A DNA stretch of 64,000 bases from Octopus sinensis (taxonomy: Eukaryota). Each line of letters opens with the position of its first letter. Position 1 is the first letter of the stretch. Below are positions 6,001-24,600 of this stretch, one piece after another. The position numbers are program-made. The stretch is from positions 30,194,001 to 30,258,000 of the forward strand of contig NC_043003.1 in the NCBI RefSeq assembly GCF_006345805.1. The letters run 5' to 3'.

Positions 6001-9000
6001 TATTAACTACTTGTCTTATTCACAGCACCATTAAATACACCCTTAACTACTTTTTCTACCTTTGTACATACCTAAATTTCTCATTGTCCACCAATCTATT
6101 TAACTTGGAAACCTACCGAAGACATTTTCTAAATACCAAAAACCAAGGTGTCACCTTAGTGCTGGGTTACTAACTTCCAACAATTATCTCAAGAAATATA
6201 TAGAATCCAAGAGTTCATGTTTTTATACAAAGTCAAACTACATTCTCAAGTGTTAACTCTCTTGTAGTAATTTTCCTGATTACTTACAACCATTGTTAAC
6301 TGACATTTGTATTTTCTCACAGTACATGATACTATCCAATCATTTTCAAAAGTACCATACTATACAATCTCATAAACTAATTAGCTTAACGTCACCCTAT
6401 CTTCATTATCTGAACAATCTGTGAGGAAACTATAACTTTTTCTTGTCATTTCAATTGTTTTATTAACAAACTCACATTGATCACTCCAGCTAGGCTTTCA
6501 GCTTATATCAATAGAACTATGCTTTTGCTATACCTTCAGTTTCTTTATTTAAGAATTTATGACACTGATACATCCATATCATTTTAGATACACTTTCCCC
6601 CACAGTGACATTGTAATTCACATATATATACTATAATACAATTTGAAACACTTCACCTTAATGTAAAACAGCAACATATTTCTAGCAAGGCACACCTGGC
6701 ATGTATCATCCAGCCTAGGGTCTAGGTATTTCTTGGCATTACACACTTTTTACCTCTTCAAAAATTCTCACCTTTGATAACCCTTCTACCTCACATTTCT
6801 ACTGTTATATTGTCCCCTGCATGGCTGGGGGACCTGCTATACTTGTACAGTAAGTCTTTTACAGCATATTATGTTTTATTTGTATCTAGTACTTCACTAT
6901 GCTATAATCCATAACATATTTTTCTAATTCCTTTCAGGGACATCTAACTTTTACATTGTCTGTTCCAAACTCATGACTATTCTTAACTTTATAATTTTGT
7001 TTTTATATTCTTTGCAGTATATAGTGCAAGTGAGCTTCTTTTAGTAAAAGTTCAATTTTTACAGAAAATCACCCTTCTTTCAAGTACACACACTGTAGTA
7101 GGAAGGACAGATGAAATAGATTTTTTCCTAGATGGCAACTTTGAACTCCCAAAACACAACTGTAAACATTTCATAGAATTAAAATAGTGAAAAGGGTTTG
7201 AGTAACCAAATTAGATATTAAAGTTAATTCAGAATGAATCAGTAAAGTGAATTACATTTACATGAAGTTTAATTATAAAATATTACAATTCATTTGGTAA
7301 ATACACTGACATTGTACCATATAAATATTAAAATTGTTACATGTATAACTAGGGGAAAAAAATTTAGTGTTCAACTTATGATTGTCTGTAAAAATAAAAT
7401 TATAACCTGAAATCATTAGTGTAGCATTTTTAAAATCAATCTGTGTGTATAATTTCATTAAAGAATTTTTCAAACATCTCGACCATCTGACTGGCATTTG
7501 ATACAAATGATTGGTTTACAATATTAACAATTACTACATATTACAAAAAAATATCTCAAATAGCTCAAGTAACATTATATAAGCATGGCTTTCATTGATT
7601 CTCTGTAACATATAAAATTCTATTGCATCGTTTTACAGGAATTTCTTTGTGGTGTCATAATATATTAATTTATACAAGTTCTTCCAACTATTTCTCCTGT
7701 TTTATGGTTTACTTTTTATGTGCTTTTTGCTCGTGATTGATCAAAACCTTTTTTGTAGAGAAAGTTTTATCACAGATATCACAATGATATGGTTTCACAC
7801 CTGTGTGAACAGGCATGTGACGAGACAAACCCTGCTTATCATAAAATGCTTTATCACAAATATCACAACTAAATGGTCTTTCACCTNNNNNNNNNNNNNN
7901 NNNNNNNNNNNNNNNNNNNNNNNNNNNNNNNNNNNNNNNNNNNNNNNNNNNNNNNNNNNNNNNNNNNNNNNNNNNNNNNNNNNNNNTGAGAAGATCAAGA
8001 TGGAACTGGGGGGAAACTAGAGGGGATATCCTAGGACAAGAGTAAGTGAAAAGAGATTATTATGGCCTGTGCCCTAGGAAGAGCCAAGGGCCTGAATGAA
8101 TAAGTGGCTATGCTATAATTATGTTTAAACAGATGCTACTAATTCCATTGAGTCAGATTTCTCCTTCCCTGTCATTGCTCTGTTCTAAATATCATTCATT
8201 TATGTCTTTTCAAATATATTTGACAATTTGAACACAATAACCTACAAAGAATCTATTTAAATTAATGTTGGATTTTTATAATTAATCACTCTTCTTCCAA
8301 AATCACAAACTATATTTGGCTGAAAGAGCTGATGAAATGGCTTTTCAAGATTATTGGAATTTTAATCCACAGAGGCAAAAGTAACTGTCACAATTATCAA
8401 CTGTTTAACATCAAAATAGTGACAGATGTCAGTGTGATCACATCAGATATTAATTTTATACCAAATTGAATCAATGAAGAGGTTTATATAAAGTTTAATT
8501 ATAAAACATTATAACTTTATTTACACAAACCTTCTGTAAGCTAGTTACATAAACATATGTAAATTTACATTCAGTTCCAGTACTGTGTTGAAGAAAGTTC
8601 TGGAAGAAAAATGTTATGGCTGAATGAACATACGACTCTTGTCTACCTTCCTCCACTTTCAATACAGTTCTGTTGTATGTTTTATACTTCATGAAGTAAT
8701 AATTTGTACAAATTCTTCCAACTTATTCTCTTGTTTTATGGTTTGCTTTTTATGTGCTTTTTGCTTATGATTAGTCAAAATCTTTTTCTTAGAGAAAGTT
8801 TTATCACAGATATCACAATGATATGGTTTCTCACCTGTGTGAACAGGTATGTGACGAGTTAAACTCTGATTATCATAAAATGTTTTACCACAAATATCAC
8901 AGTGGTATGGTTTCTCACCTGTTTGAACACGTAAATGCCGAGTTAAATGACCATTCTGAAAGAATTTTTTTCCACATATATCACAGTGGTATGGTTTCTC

Positions 9001-21600: not shown

Positions 21601-24600
21601 AAAATTCATCTACGTGGCCACACAGGTGAAAGACCATTTAGTTGTGATATTTGTGGTAAAACCTTCTCTGATAATCAGCATTTAACTCGTCACAAACCTG
21701 TTCACACAGGTGAGAAACCGTATGGTTGCGATATCTGTGATAAAACTTTCTCTATAAAAAGGAGTTTGACTAATCACAAGCAAAAGGTGCATGCAAAACA
21801 AACCATAAAACAAGAGAAATAGTTGGAAGAACTTGTATAAATTAATATATTATGACACCACAAAGAAATTCCTGTAAAACGATGCAATGAAATTTTATAT
21901 ATTACAGAAAATTAATGAAAGCCATGCTTATATAATATTACCTGAATTATTTGAGAATATTTTGTAATATCTGAACTTAAATTATATATCAGTGTTGTAA
22001 TATGTAGTAATTGTTAATATTGTAAACCAATCAGTTGTATCAAATACAAGCCAGATGGTCGAGATGATTGAAAAATTCTTTAATGAAATTATACACACAG
22101 ATTGATTAAAAAAAAAAGCTTCACTGTAATGTTTTCGAGTTATAATTTTTTTTACAGACAATCATATGTTGAACATTTAATTTTTTCCCCCCAGTTGTAC
22201 ATGTAACAATATTAACATTTATATGGTACAATGTCAATGTAATTTCCAAATGAATTGTAATATTTTATAATTAAACTTTATGTAAATGTAATTCACTTTA
22301 CTGATTCATTCTGAATTAACTTTAATATCTAATTTGGTTACTCAAAATTTTTTCACTATTTTAATACTATGAAATGTTTACAGTTGTGTTTTGGGAGTTC
22401 AAAGTTGCCATCTAGGAAAAAATCTATTTCATCTGTCCTTCCTACTACAGCGTGTGTACATGAAAGAAGGGTGATTTTCTGTAAAAATTGAACTTTTACT
22501 GAAAGAAGCTCACTATATGCTGCAAAGAATATAAAAACAAAATTATAAAGTTACGAATAGTCATGAGTTTGGAACAGACAATGTAAAAGTTAGATGTCCC
22601 TGAAAGGAATTAGAAAAATATGTTATGGATTATAGCATAGTGAAGTACTAGATACAAATAAAACATAATATGTTGTAAAAGACTTATTGTACAAGTATAG
22701 CAGGTCCCCCAGCCATGCAGGGGGTAATATAACAGTAGAAATGTGAGGTAGAAGGGTTATCAAAGGTGAGGACTTTTGAAGAGGTAAAAAGTGTGTAATG
22801 CCAAGAAATACCTAGACCCTAGGCTGGATGATACATGCCAGGTGTGCCTTGCTAGAAATTTGTTGCTGTTTTACATTAAGGTGAAGTGTTTCAAATTGTA
22901 TAATAGTATATATATATATGTGAATTACAATGTCACTGTGGGGAAAGTGTATCCAAAATGATATGGATGTATCAGTGTCATAAGTTCTTAAATAAAGAAA
23001 CTGAAGGTATAGCAAAAGCATAGTTCTATTGATATAAGCTGAAAGTCTAGCTGTAGTGATCAATGTGAGTTTGTTAATAAAACAATTGAAATGACAAGAA
23101 AAAGTTATAGTTTCCTCACAGATTGTTCAGATATAGTTTCCTCACAGATAATGAAGATAGGGTGATGTTAAGCTAATTACTTAGTTTATGAGATTGTATA
23201 GTATGGTACTTTTGAAAATGATTGGATAGTATCATGTACTGTGAGAAAATACAAATGTCAGTTAACAATGGTTGTAAGTAATCAGGAACATTACTACAAG
23301 AGAGTTAACACTTGAGAATGTAGTTTGACTTTGTATAAAAACATGAACTCTTGGATTCTATATATTTCTTGAAATAATTGCTGGAAGTTAGTAACCCAGC
23401 ACTAAGATGACACCTTGGTTTTTGGTATTTAGAAAATGTCTTCGGTAGGTTTCCAAGTTAAATAGACTGGTGGACAATGAGAAATTAAGATATGTACAAA
23501 GGTAGAAAAAGTAGTTAAGGGTGTATTTAATGGTGCTGTGAATAAGACAAGTAGTTAATAAATCAGCATTGTTGCAAGAGTTAACTAGAAATTAAGTTCC
23601 ATCATTATTTCTGTCTAGATATGTGTGTGTACCATTTTTTGCAATAGCCCATACTTGTCTGAAAGGCTCCTAAAAAATTCATTTGCTGAAACTAGAGAAA
23701 ATCTTTTAGAGATGTAGCATTTGCTTAATTCAAGTGCTGAGGTAAAAACATTATTCCTTATTCAGTAGCATGAATGTTATAAAATTTTCTAACATAAAAG
23801 ATAAATATATAAATGAGCTGGATTCTTTGAGATGTTAAGAGTAATTTAAATATATTTGACTTCATTTGCATATGTAGTTGGTCATTTTACCAGGAACTGG
23901 TGCTAAATGTTTTGACACTTTGAAAAGTTATGCAATTAAAATAAGTAGTGTCTGCAGCATTATATATATATACATACACACACACACTAGAGCATTACCT
24001 GTCATTTTCAAAATATACTTTTGCCCTCATCCATGCATAATATCAAAAAATATGACATACAATAATAATTTAACTTATATCAAATTTTATTTTACGTATA
24101 CAAAATGATGAAATGATTACAAATTTTCAAAAGAAATATATTTACCTTAAAATTAGGTAAAGCAAATTTTTTTCATTTGTATATTTGCAATAAATACATT
24201 GTTTTCTAAATTTTCTCAATACGATAGCAATCCACTTCATCACAAACCTATCTGCAAAATTTCATAAGAAGTATGTGCTTTAATCAGAAAATTATAAGAC
24301 AATCAACCTGCACCACATATGTTAACTCTGTAGTTGTCCTTTACTTTCAGTATACAATGTAAAGTGTAACTTGAGAGAAATCAACTAACCAATATTTATA
24401 TCAAATATTATTGTATATATATGTATGTATCATCATCATCAGTTTAATGTCCACTTTTCCATACTTGCATGGTTCAGACATAGTTTGTTGAGGGAGATTT
24501 TGTATGCCTGGATGCCCATCACATCACCAACCCTCACTTCTTTCCATTAAGGTCATATTTCTTTGTGGCCAGATATGTTTTCATGGAAGATAAGAAATGA

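What the first reader, a model, noticed from the sequence alone, without database searches (positions are those of the whole stretch)
7688..21822. Palindrome arms are similar everywhere except the zinc-finger arrays: candidate specificity-diversifying ZNF system
Seen: mirrored non-coding DNA looks about 95-100% identical, yet the last 195 coding nt of ZNF-A vs ZNF-D differ at 32 positions (hand count). ZNF-C vs ZNF-D differ mainly in recognition helices while linkers are largely kept: RQSGHLRN/TQYGHLSR, SEMGSLSL/SQIDSLTR, SIRTSLTS/SGRSTLTN, TTSSDRTY/SSSSRLTN, SHKNSLTL/SQNSHLTQ. Known: helix positions -1, 2, 3 and 6 set DNA specificity, and vertebrate KRAB-ZNFs and PRDM9 diversify there. Inference: a KRAB-independent, rapidly re-targeting ZNF repertoire, possibly against transposons, with flanks homogenised by conversion while arrays escape. 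Caveat: about 7 of the 32 changes are synonymous, so older divergence plus flank conversion may explain part of the pattern.
[Added by the scan's program, not by the reader: the finding's places include an assembly gap (unread letters, written N; its length is only estimated) at 7887 to 7986. Whether the letters on both sides are continuous or in frame is not known: test that first.]
Basis: partly seen in the sequence, partly recalled or inferred. Interest (0 to 1): 0.78.

Follow-up and report, generated by a model that had tools for sequence, protein, structure and literature searches.

The report
Young zinc-finger gene pair in palindrome
Two young zinc-finger gene copies facing each other in a 29-kb inverted duplication differ mostly at the amino acids that read DNA, a known pattern for this gene family, and one copy is already broken.

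Summary
A palindrome spans 104-29512, with a spacer of about 5.2 kb. Arm identity is 97.9% in the far outer flank and 95.2% in the inner flank.

The pattern has two causes.
- **Fingers D2-D10 vs ZNF-C.** Silent sites and non-contact codons differ no more than the flanks. Contact codons (-1, 2, 3, 6) differ at 30 of 108 nt against 74 of 1539 in the flank. Omega for contact sites is about 5.6 (p = 1e-5). This part of the array did not escape conversion.
- **3' end of the array.** The last fingers and 388 nt of non-coding 3' flank (90.2% identity) are older or mosaic DNA under purifying selection.

ZNF-D is intact. C has one stop and two in-frame deletions, B has a frame shift, and A is cut by the assembly gap. 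The neighbouring pair E-F evolves conservatively.

No KRAB or other effector domain was found. Transposon targeting is untested and the organism is unidentified. This is a new member of a known kind: positive selection at contact residues of recently duplicated poly-zinc-finger genes.

The parts
104..7886 (.). Outer left palindrome arm. It is the 3' flank of ZNF-A plus A's last two fingers, and it ends at the assembly gap.
   Evidence: pairs with 29512-21624; 97.9% mismatch-only identity for 200-7299.
2215..3741 (.). Perfect 1527-nt arm-to-arm identity tract, mirrored at 27415-25888. Candidate recent conversion tract.
   Evidence: longest perfect run is 1527 nt and the next longest is 326. Chance under a uniform 2.4% difference rate is about 3e-14.
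3365..4603 (+). Decayed non-LTR retrotransposon remnant (reverse transcriptase pieces), present in both arms. Bounds are approximate.
   Evidence: RVT_1, E = 5e-12, for 3622-3978; further ORF pieces in other frames; relatives carry RVT_1 with a PHD finger and some carry an endonuclease domain.
7300..7687 (-). Non-coding 3' near flank of ZNF-A, with raised divergence from D's flank 21823-22243.
   Evidence: 348 of 386 identical (90.2%), against 97.9% further out (p = 1e-13).
7688..7886 (-). ZNF-A. Only the last two fingers and the tail are visible. One stop codon lies shortly before the usual end. The 5' part is lost in the gap.
   Evidence: 32 of 199 nt differ from D and 8 of 199 from C; frame runs open into the N run.
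7887..7986 (.). Assembly gap (100 N). Continuity across it is not established.
8689..9760 (-). ZNF-B, an older disabled paralog. Its fingers lie in two reading frames and some are degenerate. The 5' bound is approximate.
   Evidence: fingers in two frames; 65-73% identity to C and D in pairwise HSPs; 79-81% over 842 three-way alignable columns.
10172..11356 (-). ZNF-C, the left-arm partner of D. It is disabled by one in-frame stop and two in-frame deletions (195 nt and 54 nt) relative to D.
11357..13396 (.). Inner left arm, upstream flank of C.
   Evidence: 95.2% identity to 18831-20388.
13397..18605 (.). Spacer of the palindrome. It has no Pfam domain in ORFs of 45 aa or more and contains a weaker inner inverted repeat, 14399-14724 vs 16234-15849.
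18606..20388 (.). Inner right arm, upstream flank of D. It includes a conserved polypyrimidine-AG about 55 nt before the ATG.
20389..21822 (+). ZNF-D. Intact ORF of 477 aa with 14 C2H2 fingers, a short acidic N-terminus and no known effector domain.
   Evidence: the ESM Atlas holds the same 477 aa letter for letter.
21307..22243 (+). High-divergence, mosaic tract of the right arm: fingers D9-D14 plus the near 3' flank.
   Evidence: maximum chi-square breakpoint at 21301-21310; silent changes 9 of 82 codons from finger D11 on, t about 0.28 per nt; flank 90.2%.
21823..29512 (.). Outer right palindrome arm, 3' flank of D.
31271..32470 (-). ZNF-E, a neighbouring family member with 12 fingers. Used as a control together with F.
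43334..44185 (-). ZNF-F, paralog of E with 8 fingers.
60409..61605 (+). ZNF-G, a further family member with the same 'ME(D/E)(K/R)L' start.

Best explanation
The locus is a young inverted (palindromic) segmental duplication inside a lineage-specific cluster of C2H2 poly-zinc-finger genes. These genes have a short acidic N-terminus, no known effector domain, and their whole visible coding sequence in one exon. The cluster evolves by birth and death: D is intact, C and B are disabled, and A is incomplete.

After the duplication, the C-type and D-type copies diverged in fingers D2-D10 almost only by amino-acid replacements at and around the DNA-contacting helix positions. The rate is several times the neutral rate. 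The best reading is diversifying selection for a changed DNA-binding specificity, as described for recently duplicated poly-ZF genes in many animals.

The 3' third of the array plus about 400 nt of its 3' flank has a different and older history. It looks like ectopic exchange among the neighbouring copies, or a tract that was not homogenised.

The arms are homogenised in places by arm-to-arm conversion.

**Shown:** the anatomy, the divergence pattern and its statistics, the mosaic, and the broken copies.

**Inferred:** selection as the cause, DNA binding by the proteins, and any role against transposons.
For: - **Contact versus flank.** In D codons 1-361, contact codons differ at 30 of 108 nt against 74 of 1539 in the inner flank (p = 1.5e-13). 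Scaffold codons (34 of 540) and the N-terminus (9 of 138) match the flank rate.
- **Codon model.** Contact omega is 5.6 (LRT 19.6, p = 1e-5), scaffold omega is 1.0 and t is 0.07 per nt. Without finger D9, contact omega is 7.9 (p = 6e-6). Without D8 and D9 it is 7.0 (p = 1e-4).
- **Silent sites.** Four-fold sites differ at 3 of 95. Silent changes are 7 of 225 codons in the 5' part against 9 of 82 in the 3' part (p = 0.016).
- **3' part.** t is 0.28 per nt, scaffold omega 0.28 (p = 0.005) and contact omega 1.06. The near flank is 90.2% identical.
- **Mosaic.** With B as outgroup there are 32 C-derived and 8 D-derived sites left of 21301-21310, and 11 and 25 right of it. Only 3 of 5000 permutations reach this value.
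- **Conversion.** A 1527-nt perfect run links the arms.
- **Control pair.** E-F shows purifying selection, with contact omega 0.52, scaffold 0.25 and N-terminus 0.10.
- **Known pattern.** The same pattern is described in passages of PMC2604467 and PMC10547256.
Against: - C, on whose lineage most 5' changes fall when polarised by B, is now disabled. Scaffold and N-terminal omega near 1 fit a copy without constraint. Selection must therefore have acted before C was disabled, or on a C-type gene such as A whose 5' part is unseen.
- Inter-finger or paralog conversion would be visible mainly at helix codons, because scaffolds are alike in all fingers. It could therefore mimic this signal. Two of 15 clusters of linked differences in C have an exact same-register donor in the window, and donors outside the 64 kb could not be searched.
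- The test rests on a single pair of sequences and a home-written codon model with a shared t and kappa. The 5'/3' split at codon 361 was chosen after seeing the data.
- NG86 and ML estimates of silent divergence over the whole gene (0.11-0.12) are higher than the four-fold estimate (0.03).
- No orthologs, polymorphism, expression or binding data are available.
Confidence: 0.6

Rival explanations
1. Non-selective conversion. Short templated exchanges between non-homologous fingers, within the array or from paralogs elsewhere, overwrite helix-coding patches. Scaffolds are nearly the same in every finger, so only helix codons appear to change. This gives an apparent omega above 1 without selection for new targets.
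For: - The B/C/D mosaic shows that exchange does occur in these arrays.
- The finger pair C7/D9 is no more alike (48 of 63) than unrelated fingers.
- D13 is closer to B5 (57 of 63) than to its positional partner C10 (51 of 63).
- Two of 15 C clusters have exact same-register donors in the window, against 0 expected from random variants.
- Emerson and Thomas report short conversions in many poly-ZF sets (passages).
Against: - 13 of 15 C clusters and 15 of 15 D clusters have no donor among the 62 in-register fingers of the window.
- No 24-nt helix patch of C1-C9 or D3-D12 has a better match elsewhere than its partner, except D3, D6, D9 and D13, which have weak matches of 3-4 mismatches to B or G.
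- Silent scaffold changes in fingers D2-D8 are few, 0-1 per finger. Whole-finger replacement is therefore excluded there.
- The signal survives removal of D9 and D8.
Confidence: 0.2
2. Older divergence plus flank homogenisation. The arrays are older than they look from the flanks. Arm-to-arm conversion keeps the flanks alike, and the arrays are excluded from it.
For: - The 1527-nt perfect tract in the arms.
- Heterogeneous arm divergence of 0%, about 2%, 4.8% and about 10%.
- In the 3' part of the array and the near flank, silent and non-coding divergence is raised.
- NG86 pS over the whole gene is 0.107.
Against: - In fingers D2-D10, silent, four-fold and scaffold divergence equals the flank divergence. 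These two-thirds of the array are not older.
- The high-divergence tract does not stop at the coding boundary. It runs about 400 nt into non-coding DNA.
Confidence: 0.1
3. Assembly artefact. The outer left arm with ZNF-A (1-7886) is a mis-scaffolded or mis-oriented haplotype contig. It could be an allelic version of C's or D's downstream region, so part of the palindrome and the A copy would not be real.
For: - The arm ends exactly at a 100-N gap inside a repeat array. The sequence beyond the gap does not continue A.
- 7528-7886 matches 10012-10370 at 94.5%, and A's tail differs from C's at only 8 of 199 nt. This could be allelic.
- The perfect 1527-nt tract could be a collapse or polishing artefact.
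Against: - The inner palindrome holding C and D lies in one ungapped stretch. It differs at 4.8% with 9 indel events, unlike a fold-back read artefact.
- The main result (C vs D) does not depend on the gap.
- A's far flank matches D's flank, not C's, beyond 7528. This fits a real outer arm.
Confidence: 0.1

Closest known systems
Lineage-specific expansions of poly-C2H2 zinc-finger genes with positive selection at helix positions -1, 3 and 6 (Emerson and Thomas 2009, PMC2604467; passages read)
   Same: - Recently duplicated, physically clustered paralogs.
- Replacements concentrated at the nucleotide-contact residues.
- Finger gain and loss between paralogs: two in-frame deletions in C, and 12 fingers in E against 8 in F.
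- Older pairs conserve their helices, as E-F fingers 1-4 do.
- Short conversions complicate the signal.
   Different: - This is a single pair in an inverted rather than tandem arrangement.
- One member is disabled.
- No KRAB, SCAN or BTB domain was found.
- The organism is unidentified and probably an invertebrate.
KRAB-independent ZNF families proposed to track transposons, such as cyprinid FiNZ-ZNFs and the large ZNF sets of octopus, weevil and sea urchin (Wells et al. 2023, PMC10547256; passages read)
   Same: - Many-finger arrays behind a short, glutamate-rich N-terminal stretch with no match to known domains.
- Contact residues are the most variable positions.
- The genes sit in repeat-rich DNA.
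   Different: - Homology of this N-terminus ('ME(D/E)(K/R)L...') to FiNZ was not tested, because no FiNZ sequence was at hand.
- No motif prediction, transposon library, expression or knock-down data exist for this locus. Transposon targeting here is only an analogy.
Sex-chromosome palindromes with arm-to-arm gene conversion (search listing and abstract starts of PMC3723533, PMC8600007, PMC8981503 and 10.1101/800185)
   Same: - Inverted arms around a unique spacer.
- A long perfectly identical tract amid diverged sequence, as expected from a recent multi-kilobase conversion.
   Different: - The arms are about 11-13 kb at 95-98% identity, not above 99%.
- The arms are asymmetric, with extra copies A and B on the left.
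- Nothing shows a sex-chromosome location or testis expression.
PRDM9-type rapidly evolving finger arrays (abstract start of PMC2779102; otherwise general knowledge, recalled)
   Same: Rapid change at the DNA-contact positions of a C2H2 array.
   Different: - No PR/SET, KRAB or SSXRD domain was found.
- Fingers within the array are only 68-71% alike, not minisatellite-like.
- The changes are mostly point-like rather than repeat shuffling.

Membership tests
C2H2 (Krueppel-type) poly-zinc-finger proteins | Tandem CX2CX12HX3-4H fingers recognised by the Pfam zf-C2H2 models | tested here: met
   D has 14 fingers by pattern. PF00096 matches 14 stretches (E = 8e-76) and PF13465 matches with E = 1e-105.
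C2H2 (Krueppel-type) poly-zinc-finger proteins | Seven-residue TGEKPY-type linkers giving an 84-nt repeat period | tested here: met
   Translations. TRF finds period 84 in arrays B, C, D, E, F and G.
KRAB-ZNF | KRAB domain (PF01352) encoded upstream of the array | tested here: not met
   - No KRAB in D.
- None in the N-termini of D, E, F and G at E up to 1.
- None in 77 stop-to-stop ORFs of 45 aa or more between C and D.
- Caveat: a small exon shorter than 45 codons, or one lying farther away, would be missed. A conserved polypyrimidine-AG about 55 nt upstream of the ATG leaves room for a 5' exon.
FiNZ-ZNF (cyprinid fish) | The conserved 28-aa FiNZ N-terminal sequence | not tested
   - No FiNZ sequence or model was available in the tools used.
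- The N-terminus here has no Pfam match.
- It has no word-sharing relative among proteins of 262-835 aa.
- The likeness is limited to 'short and acidic'.
PRDM9-like | PR/SET domain plus a minisatellite-like array of near-identical fingers | tested here: not met
   No SET domain in D. Finger units are 68-71% alike in D.
Palindrome maintained by arm-to-arm gene conversion | Inverted arms around a spacer | tested here: met
   arms 104-13396 and 18606-29512.
Palindrome maintained by arm-to-arm gene conversion | Arm identity above 99% (as in the abstracts listed) | tested here: not met
   97.9% in the outer arm and 95.2% in the inner arm.
Palindrome maintained by arm-to-arm gene conversion | Tracts of identity longer than uniform divergence allows | tested here: met
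   A 1527-nt perfect run, chance about 3e-14. An assembly artefact is not excluded.
Poly-ZF paralogs under diversifying selection | dN/dS above 1 concentrated at contact positions, with silent divergence as the yardstick | tested here: met
   - Met for fingers D2-D10 vs C: omega 5.6, p = 1e-5.
- A model-free test gives p = 1.5e-13.
- Not met for fingers D11-D14 (omega 1.06).
- Not met for the E-F pair (omega 0.52).
Transposon-targeting ZNF repertoire | Predicted or measured binding sites enriched in (young) transposon families | not testable with these tools
   No motif predictor, no transposon library of this organism and no binding data were available.

The most novel reading that the evidence does not exclude
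The palindrome itself may work as a unit that makes co-regulated zinc-finger genes with new specificities. Arm-to-arm conversion would keep promoters and UTRs of the two facing copies alike. Selection, or a helix-targeted templated process, would drive only the DNA-reading residues apart. One arm (D) would keep the ancestral specificity while the other (the C/A type) explores new ones and is discarded when it fails.
Probability: 0.08. Interest if true: 0.6.

Novelty: new member of a known kind. Interest (0 to 1): 0.32.

Why it matters
If the reading holds, this is a clean small example of how a zinc-finger gene changes its DNA target soon after duplication. Two copies differ from each other no more than their non-coding flanks do at silent sites, scaffold codons and the N-terminus. 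At the contact codons they differ about six times more.

It also shows that a headline contrast of 'flanks alike, arrays different' can mix two causes: selection in one part and older or mosaic DNA in another. That matters for anyone scanning genomes for such signatures.

It does not open a new question. The phenomenon is described for vertebrate KRAB-ZNFs, for fish FiNZ-ZNFs and, more loosely, for invertebrate expansions.

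Tried and rejected
- **Pseudogene decay alone.** Rejected. Neutral decay cannot give contact omega of 5-8 with scaffold omega near 1.
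- **Whole array older than the flanks.** Rejected for fingers D2-D10 and kept for the 3' end.
- **In-window donors for helix patches.** The 24-nt search found none better than the partner except weak B or G matches. The cluster search found 2 of 15 for C and 0 of 15 for D.
- **Relatives and organism.**
  - The full-length D search gave only generic ZNF hits of 54% identity or less. Only the 8000 candidates sharing most words were scored.
  - The N-terminal search (residues 1-82) gave no hit among 5 candidates.
  - Exact look-up of D, E, F and G found 0 of 4 in the collection.
  - The ESM Atlas holds D letter for letter, but its neighbour clusters are generic.
  - The RT fragment's best named relatives are Octopus vulgaris (65%) and Hydractinia (60%).
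  - The Atlas on the RT fragment gave no useful taxa.
  - The organism therefore stays unidentified. A mollusc or cephalopod origin is only a weak lead.
- **RNA genes.** Rfam gave 0 matches and the tRNA scan gave 0.
- **Poly(A) signal.** AATAAA is not usefully above chance (145 against 123 expected), so no poly(A) site is claimed.
- **Not used.** The E-F alignment beyond finger 4 is not positionally orthologous and was left out of the control. Structure prediction and fold search were judged uninformative for a canonical finger array.

Full report
**Anatomy**

The window is AT-rich eukaryotic DNA of about 35% G+C. It carries seven C2H2 zinc-finger arrays:

| Copy | Coordinates | Strand | State |
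|---|---|---|---|
| A | 7688-7886 | - | cut by the N run 7887-7986 |
| B | 8689 to about 9760 | - | disabled |
| C | 10172-11356 | - | disabled |
| D | 20389-21822 | + | intact |
| E | 31271-32470 | - | open |
| F | 43334-44185 | - | open |
| G | 60409-61605 | + | open |

- D, E, F and G are open from a shared start, 'ME(D/E)(K/R)L'.
- D is 477 aa with 14 fingers. It matches only C2H2 families in Pfam.
- The ESM Atlas holds the same 477 residues letter for letter. This shows that a gene predictor made the same call, not that the protein is made.
- C has one in-frame stop and two in-frame deletions relative to D, of 195 nt and 54 nt.
- B's fingers lie in two frames and several are degenerate.
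- A has a stop shortly before the usual end.

**The palindrome**

- Self-comparison gives inverted arms 104-7886 vs 29512-21624, at 94.4% over 7952 columns with gaps. The inner arms are 10020-13396 vs 21972-18606, around a spacer of about 5.2 kb.
- The left arm has an extra segment holding A's array end, the gap and B.
- 7528-7886 repeats 10012-10370 directly at 94.5%.
- Mismatch-only identity is 97.9% for the far outer flank (6892 of 7039) and 95.2% for the inner flank (1465 of 1539). It is 90.2% for the 388 nt directly 3' of the stop codon (348 of 386) and 88.4% for the C/D arrays (854 of 966).
- One perfect run of 1527 nt (2215-3741 = 27415-25888) stands out; the next longest is 326 nt. Its chance under a uniform difference rate is about 3e-14. 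This fits a recent arm-to-arm conversion tract, or an assembly collapse.

**The gap**

A's frame runs open into the N run. On the far side, 7987-8700 has stops in every minus-strand frame and no finger. It is B's 3' flank: 8108-8570 resembles 6897-7342 at 62%. Continuity and frame across the gap therefore cannot be shown. A's 5' part is not in the window, and the outer left arm is attached to the rest only by the scaffold join. The C/D inverted pair lies in one ungapped stretch, and the main results do not depend on the gap.

- A vs D differ at 32 of the last 195-199 nt, with seven silent codon changes. This is exact.
- A differs from C at only 8 of 199 nt, and 26 of the variable sites are unique to D.
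- The five quoted helix pairs are correct.

**Where C and D differ**

- Over 393 aligned codons, amino-acid differences are 27 of 52 at positions -1, 2, 3 and 6, and 16 of 39 at -2, 1 and 5. They are 34 of 247 at the remaining finger and linker codons, and 9 of 55 outside the fingers. Fisher's test of contact against scaffold gives p = 1.4e-8.
- The mapping of helix numbering onto CX2CX12H is from general knowledge of Zif268-type fingers (recalled). It agrees with the passages of PMC2604467.
- I wrote a pairwise Goldman-Yang-type codon model (F3x4, with t and kappa shared across site classes). It gives contact omega 2.8 (LRT 12.5, p = 4e-4) and scaffold omega 0.59.

**Two regimes**

Silent differences are unevenly placed: 7 of 225 identical-amino-acid codons in D codons 1-361 against 9 of 82 in codons 362-477 (p = 0.016). 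I chose this split after seeing the list of silent changes.

*5' part.*
- t is 0.07 per nt, close to the inner flank's 0.048.
- Scaffold omega is 1.0 and N-terminal omega is 1.1.
- Contact omega is 5.6 (LRT 19.6, p = 1e-5).

*3' part.*
- t is 0.28 per nt.
- Scaffold omega is 0.28 (p = 0.005).
- Contact omega is 1.06.

*Further checks on the 5' part.*
- Leaving out the most divergent finger pair (D9/C7) gives contact omega 7.9. Leaving out D8 as well gives 7.0. In both cases t is about 0.04 per nt.
- A model-free check agrees. Contact codons differ at 30 of 108 nt against 74 of 1539 in the inner flank (p = 1.5e-13). Scaffold codons (34 of 540, p = 0.18) and the N-terminus (9 of 138, p = 0.41) match the flank.
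- Four-fold sites differ at 3 of 95.
- Against this, NG86 pS for the whole gene is 0.107. Two-fold sites show 13 transitions in 211 codons, more than the flank transition rates of 1.3-2.8%. Most of that excess sits in the 3' part.

**Mosaic history**

- With B as outgroup, 76 sites are informative. A maximum chi-square scan puts a breakpoint at 21301-21310, the start of finger D9.
- Left of it there are 32 C-derived and 8 D-derived sites. Right of it there are 11 and 25. Only 3 of 5000 permutations reach this value.
- Finger by finger, C7/D9 are no more alike (48 of 63) than unrelated fingers. D13 is closer to B5 (57 of 63) than to C10 or A1 (51 of 63).
- Together with the 90.2% near flank, this defines a tract of about 0.9 kb (21307-22243 in D) with an older or exchanged history. 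Its ends do not coincide with the coding sequence.

**Selection or conversion?**

Scaffolds are alike in all fingers, so any inter-finger conversion would show mainly at helix codons.

- I looked for donors among 62 in-register fingers of the window. Of 15 clusters of two or more linked differences, the C version has an exact same-register match elsewhere in 2 and the D version in 0. Random variants gave 0.
- No 24-nt helix patch has a better match than its partner, apart from weak matches to B or G.
- Silent scaffold changes are 0-1 per finger in D2-D8. Whole-finger replacement is therefore excluded there.

**Which copy changed**

Polarised by B, most changes in fingers D2-D8 fall on the C lineage. 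C is now disabled, and omega near 1 at non-contact sites fits loss of constraint. The contact excess cannot come from neutral decay. It must date from before C was disabled, belong to a C/A-type gene whose 5' part is hidden in the gap, or reflect conversion.

**Control pair**

E and F are direct paralogs at about 81% identity. For the N-terminus plus fingers 1-4, t is 0.25 per nt, contact omega is 0.52, scaffold omega is 0.25 and N-terminal omega is 0.10. These helices are conserved and the N-terminus is a constrained coding region. Beyond finger 4 the arrays are rearranged, with 12 fingers against 8. Rapid helix change is therefore not a general property of the cluster.

**Effector domain and gene model**

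- No KRAB, SCAN, BTB or other Pfam domain is present in D.
- None is present in the four N-termini or in 77 ORFs of 45 aa or more between C and D.
- A polypyrimidine-AG about 55 nt upstream of the ATG is shared by C, D, E, F and G. A 5' exon is therefore possible, and 'KRAB-independent' holds only for what is visible.

**Relatives and organism**

- D finds only generic poly-ZF proteins of 54% identity or less.
- Its N-terminus finds nothing.
- D, E, F and G are not in the 15-billion collection as exact sequences.
- The arm's reverse-transcriptase remnant is 65% identical to an Octopus vulgaris protein and 60% to Hydractinia proteins, among mostly unnamed hits.
- The organism is not identified. 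A mollusc origin is a weak lead.
Orthologous loci therefore stayed unchecked.

**Literature**

- Emerson and Thomas 2009 (PMC2604467; passages) describe positive selection concentrated at -1, 3 and 6 in recently duplicated poly-ZF genes of several animals. They also describe conserved helices in stable orthologs, finger gain and loss, and short conversions.
- Wells et al. 2023 (PMC10547256; passages) describe KRAB-less FiNZ-ZNFs with a short glutamate-rich N-terminus under positive selection. They also predict transposon binding for octopus and other invertebrate ZNFs.
- Holzinger et al. 2025 (PMC12513265; abstract and section 16) call the transposon arms-race idea an open question for cephalopod C2H2 genes.
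- A search for palindrome, gene conversion and zinc finger found 130 papers with at least 3 of 5 terms. Among the 12 listed, none described finger arrays diverging inside a palindrome. This is one search, not proof of absence.

**Verdict**

The interesting part, contact-residue replacement at several times the neutral rate, is well supported for one gene pair. It belongs to a known kind of evolution, and one partner is broken.

Noticed in passing
window 18449-18625, 37772-37931 (minus strand), 54527-54705: Three copies of a SINE-like dispersed repeat of about 170 nt, 75-79% alike. One copy ends in simple repeats. The copy at 18449-18625 sits exactly at the inner boundary of the right palindrome arm (18606). 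No tRNA-like gene was detected in the window.
   Followed up: partly
window 3365-4603 (+) and its mirror at about 25000-26300: Decayed non-LTR retrotransposon remnant (RVT_1). Its relatives carry RVT_1 with a PHD finger, and some carry an endonuclease domain. ORF pieces lie in several frames. The 1527-nt perfect arm-to-arm tract (2215-3741) overlaps its 5' part.
   Followed up: partly
window 31272-31730: ZNF-E carries a recent internal duplication of a two-finger unit (period 168 nt, 2.7 copies, 89% matches). Fingers E9/E11 and E10/E12 have the same helices. This is array growth by unequal exchange.
   Followed up: no
window 14399-14724 vs 16234-15849: A weaker inverted repeat (69%) lies inside the spacer, with mirrored ORFs beginning 'MEG...FEVRGE'. 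Its centre is offset from that of the main palindrome. It may be an older inner layer or a separate element.
   Followed up: no
window 49867-50250 (+) and 14828-15211 (-): ORFs that look like C-terminal tails of non-LTR retrotransposon ORF2 proteins. This is an impression from recall. The second ORF had no Pfam match, and the first was not scanned.
   Followed up: no
window 36481-36708, 41087-41361 and 54292-54432: Tandem repeats with periods of 67, 147 and 42 nt (3.5, 1.9 and 3.4 copies). The 67-nt array is G+C-rich in an AT-rich window.
   Followed up: no
window 20239-20388 and the equivalent stretches upstream of C, E, F and G: A conserved polypyrimidine-AG lies about 55 nt upstream of the shared ATG. 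The sequence 'AAAT(C/T/A)ATGGA(A/G)GA' around the start is conserved. Together these hint at a 5' exon spliced onto the finger exon.
   Followed up: partly
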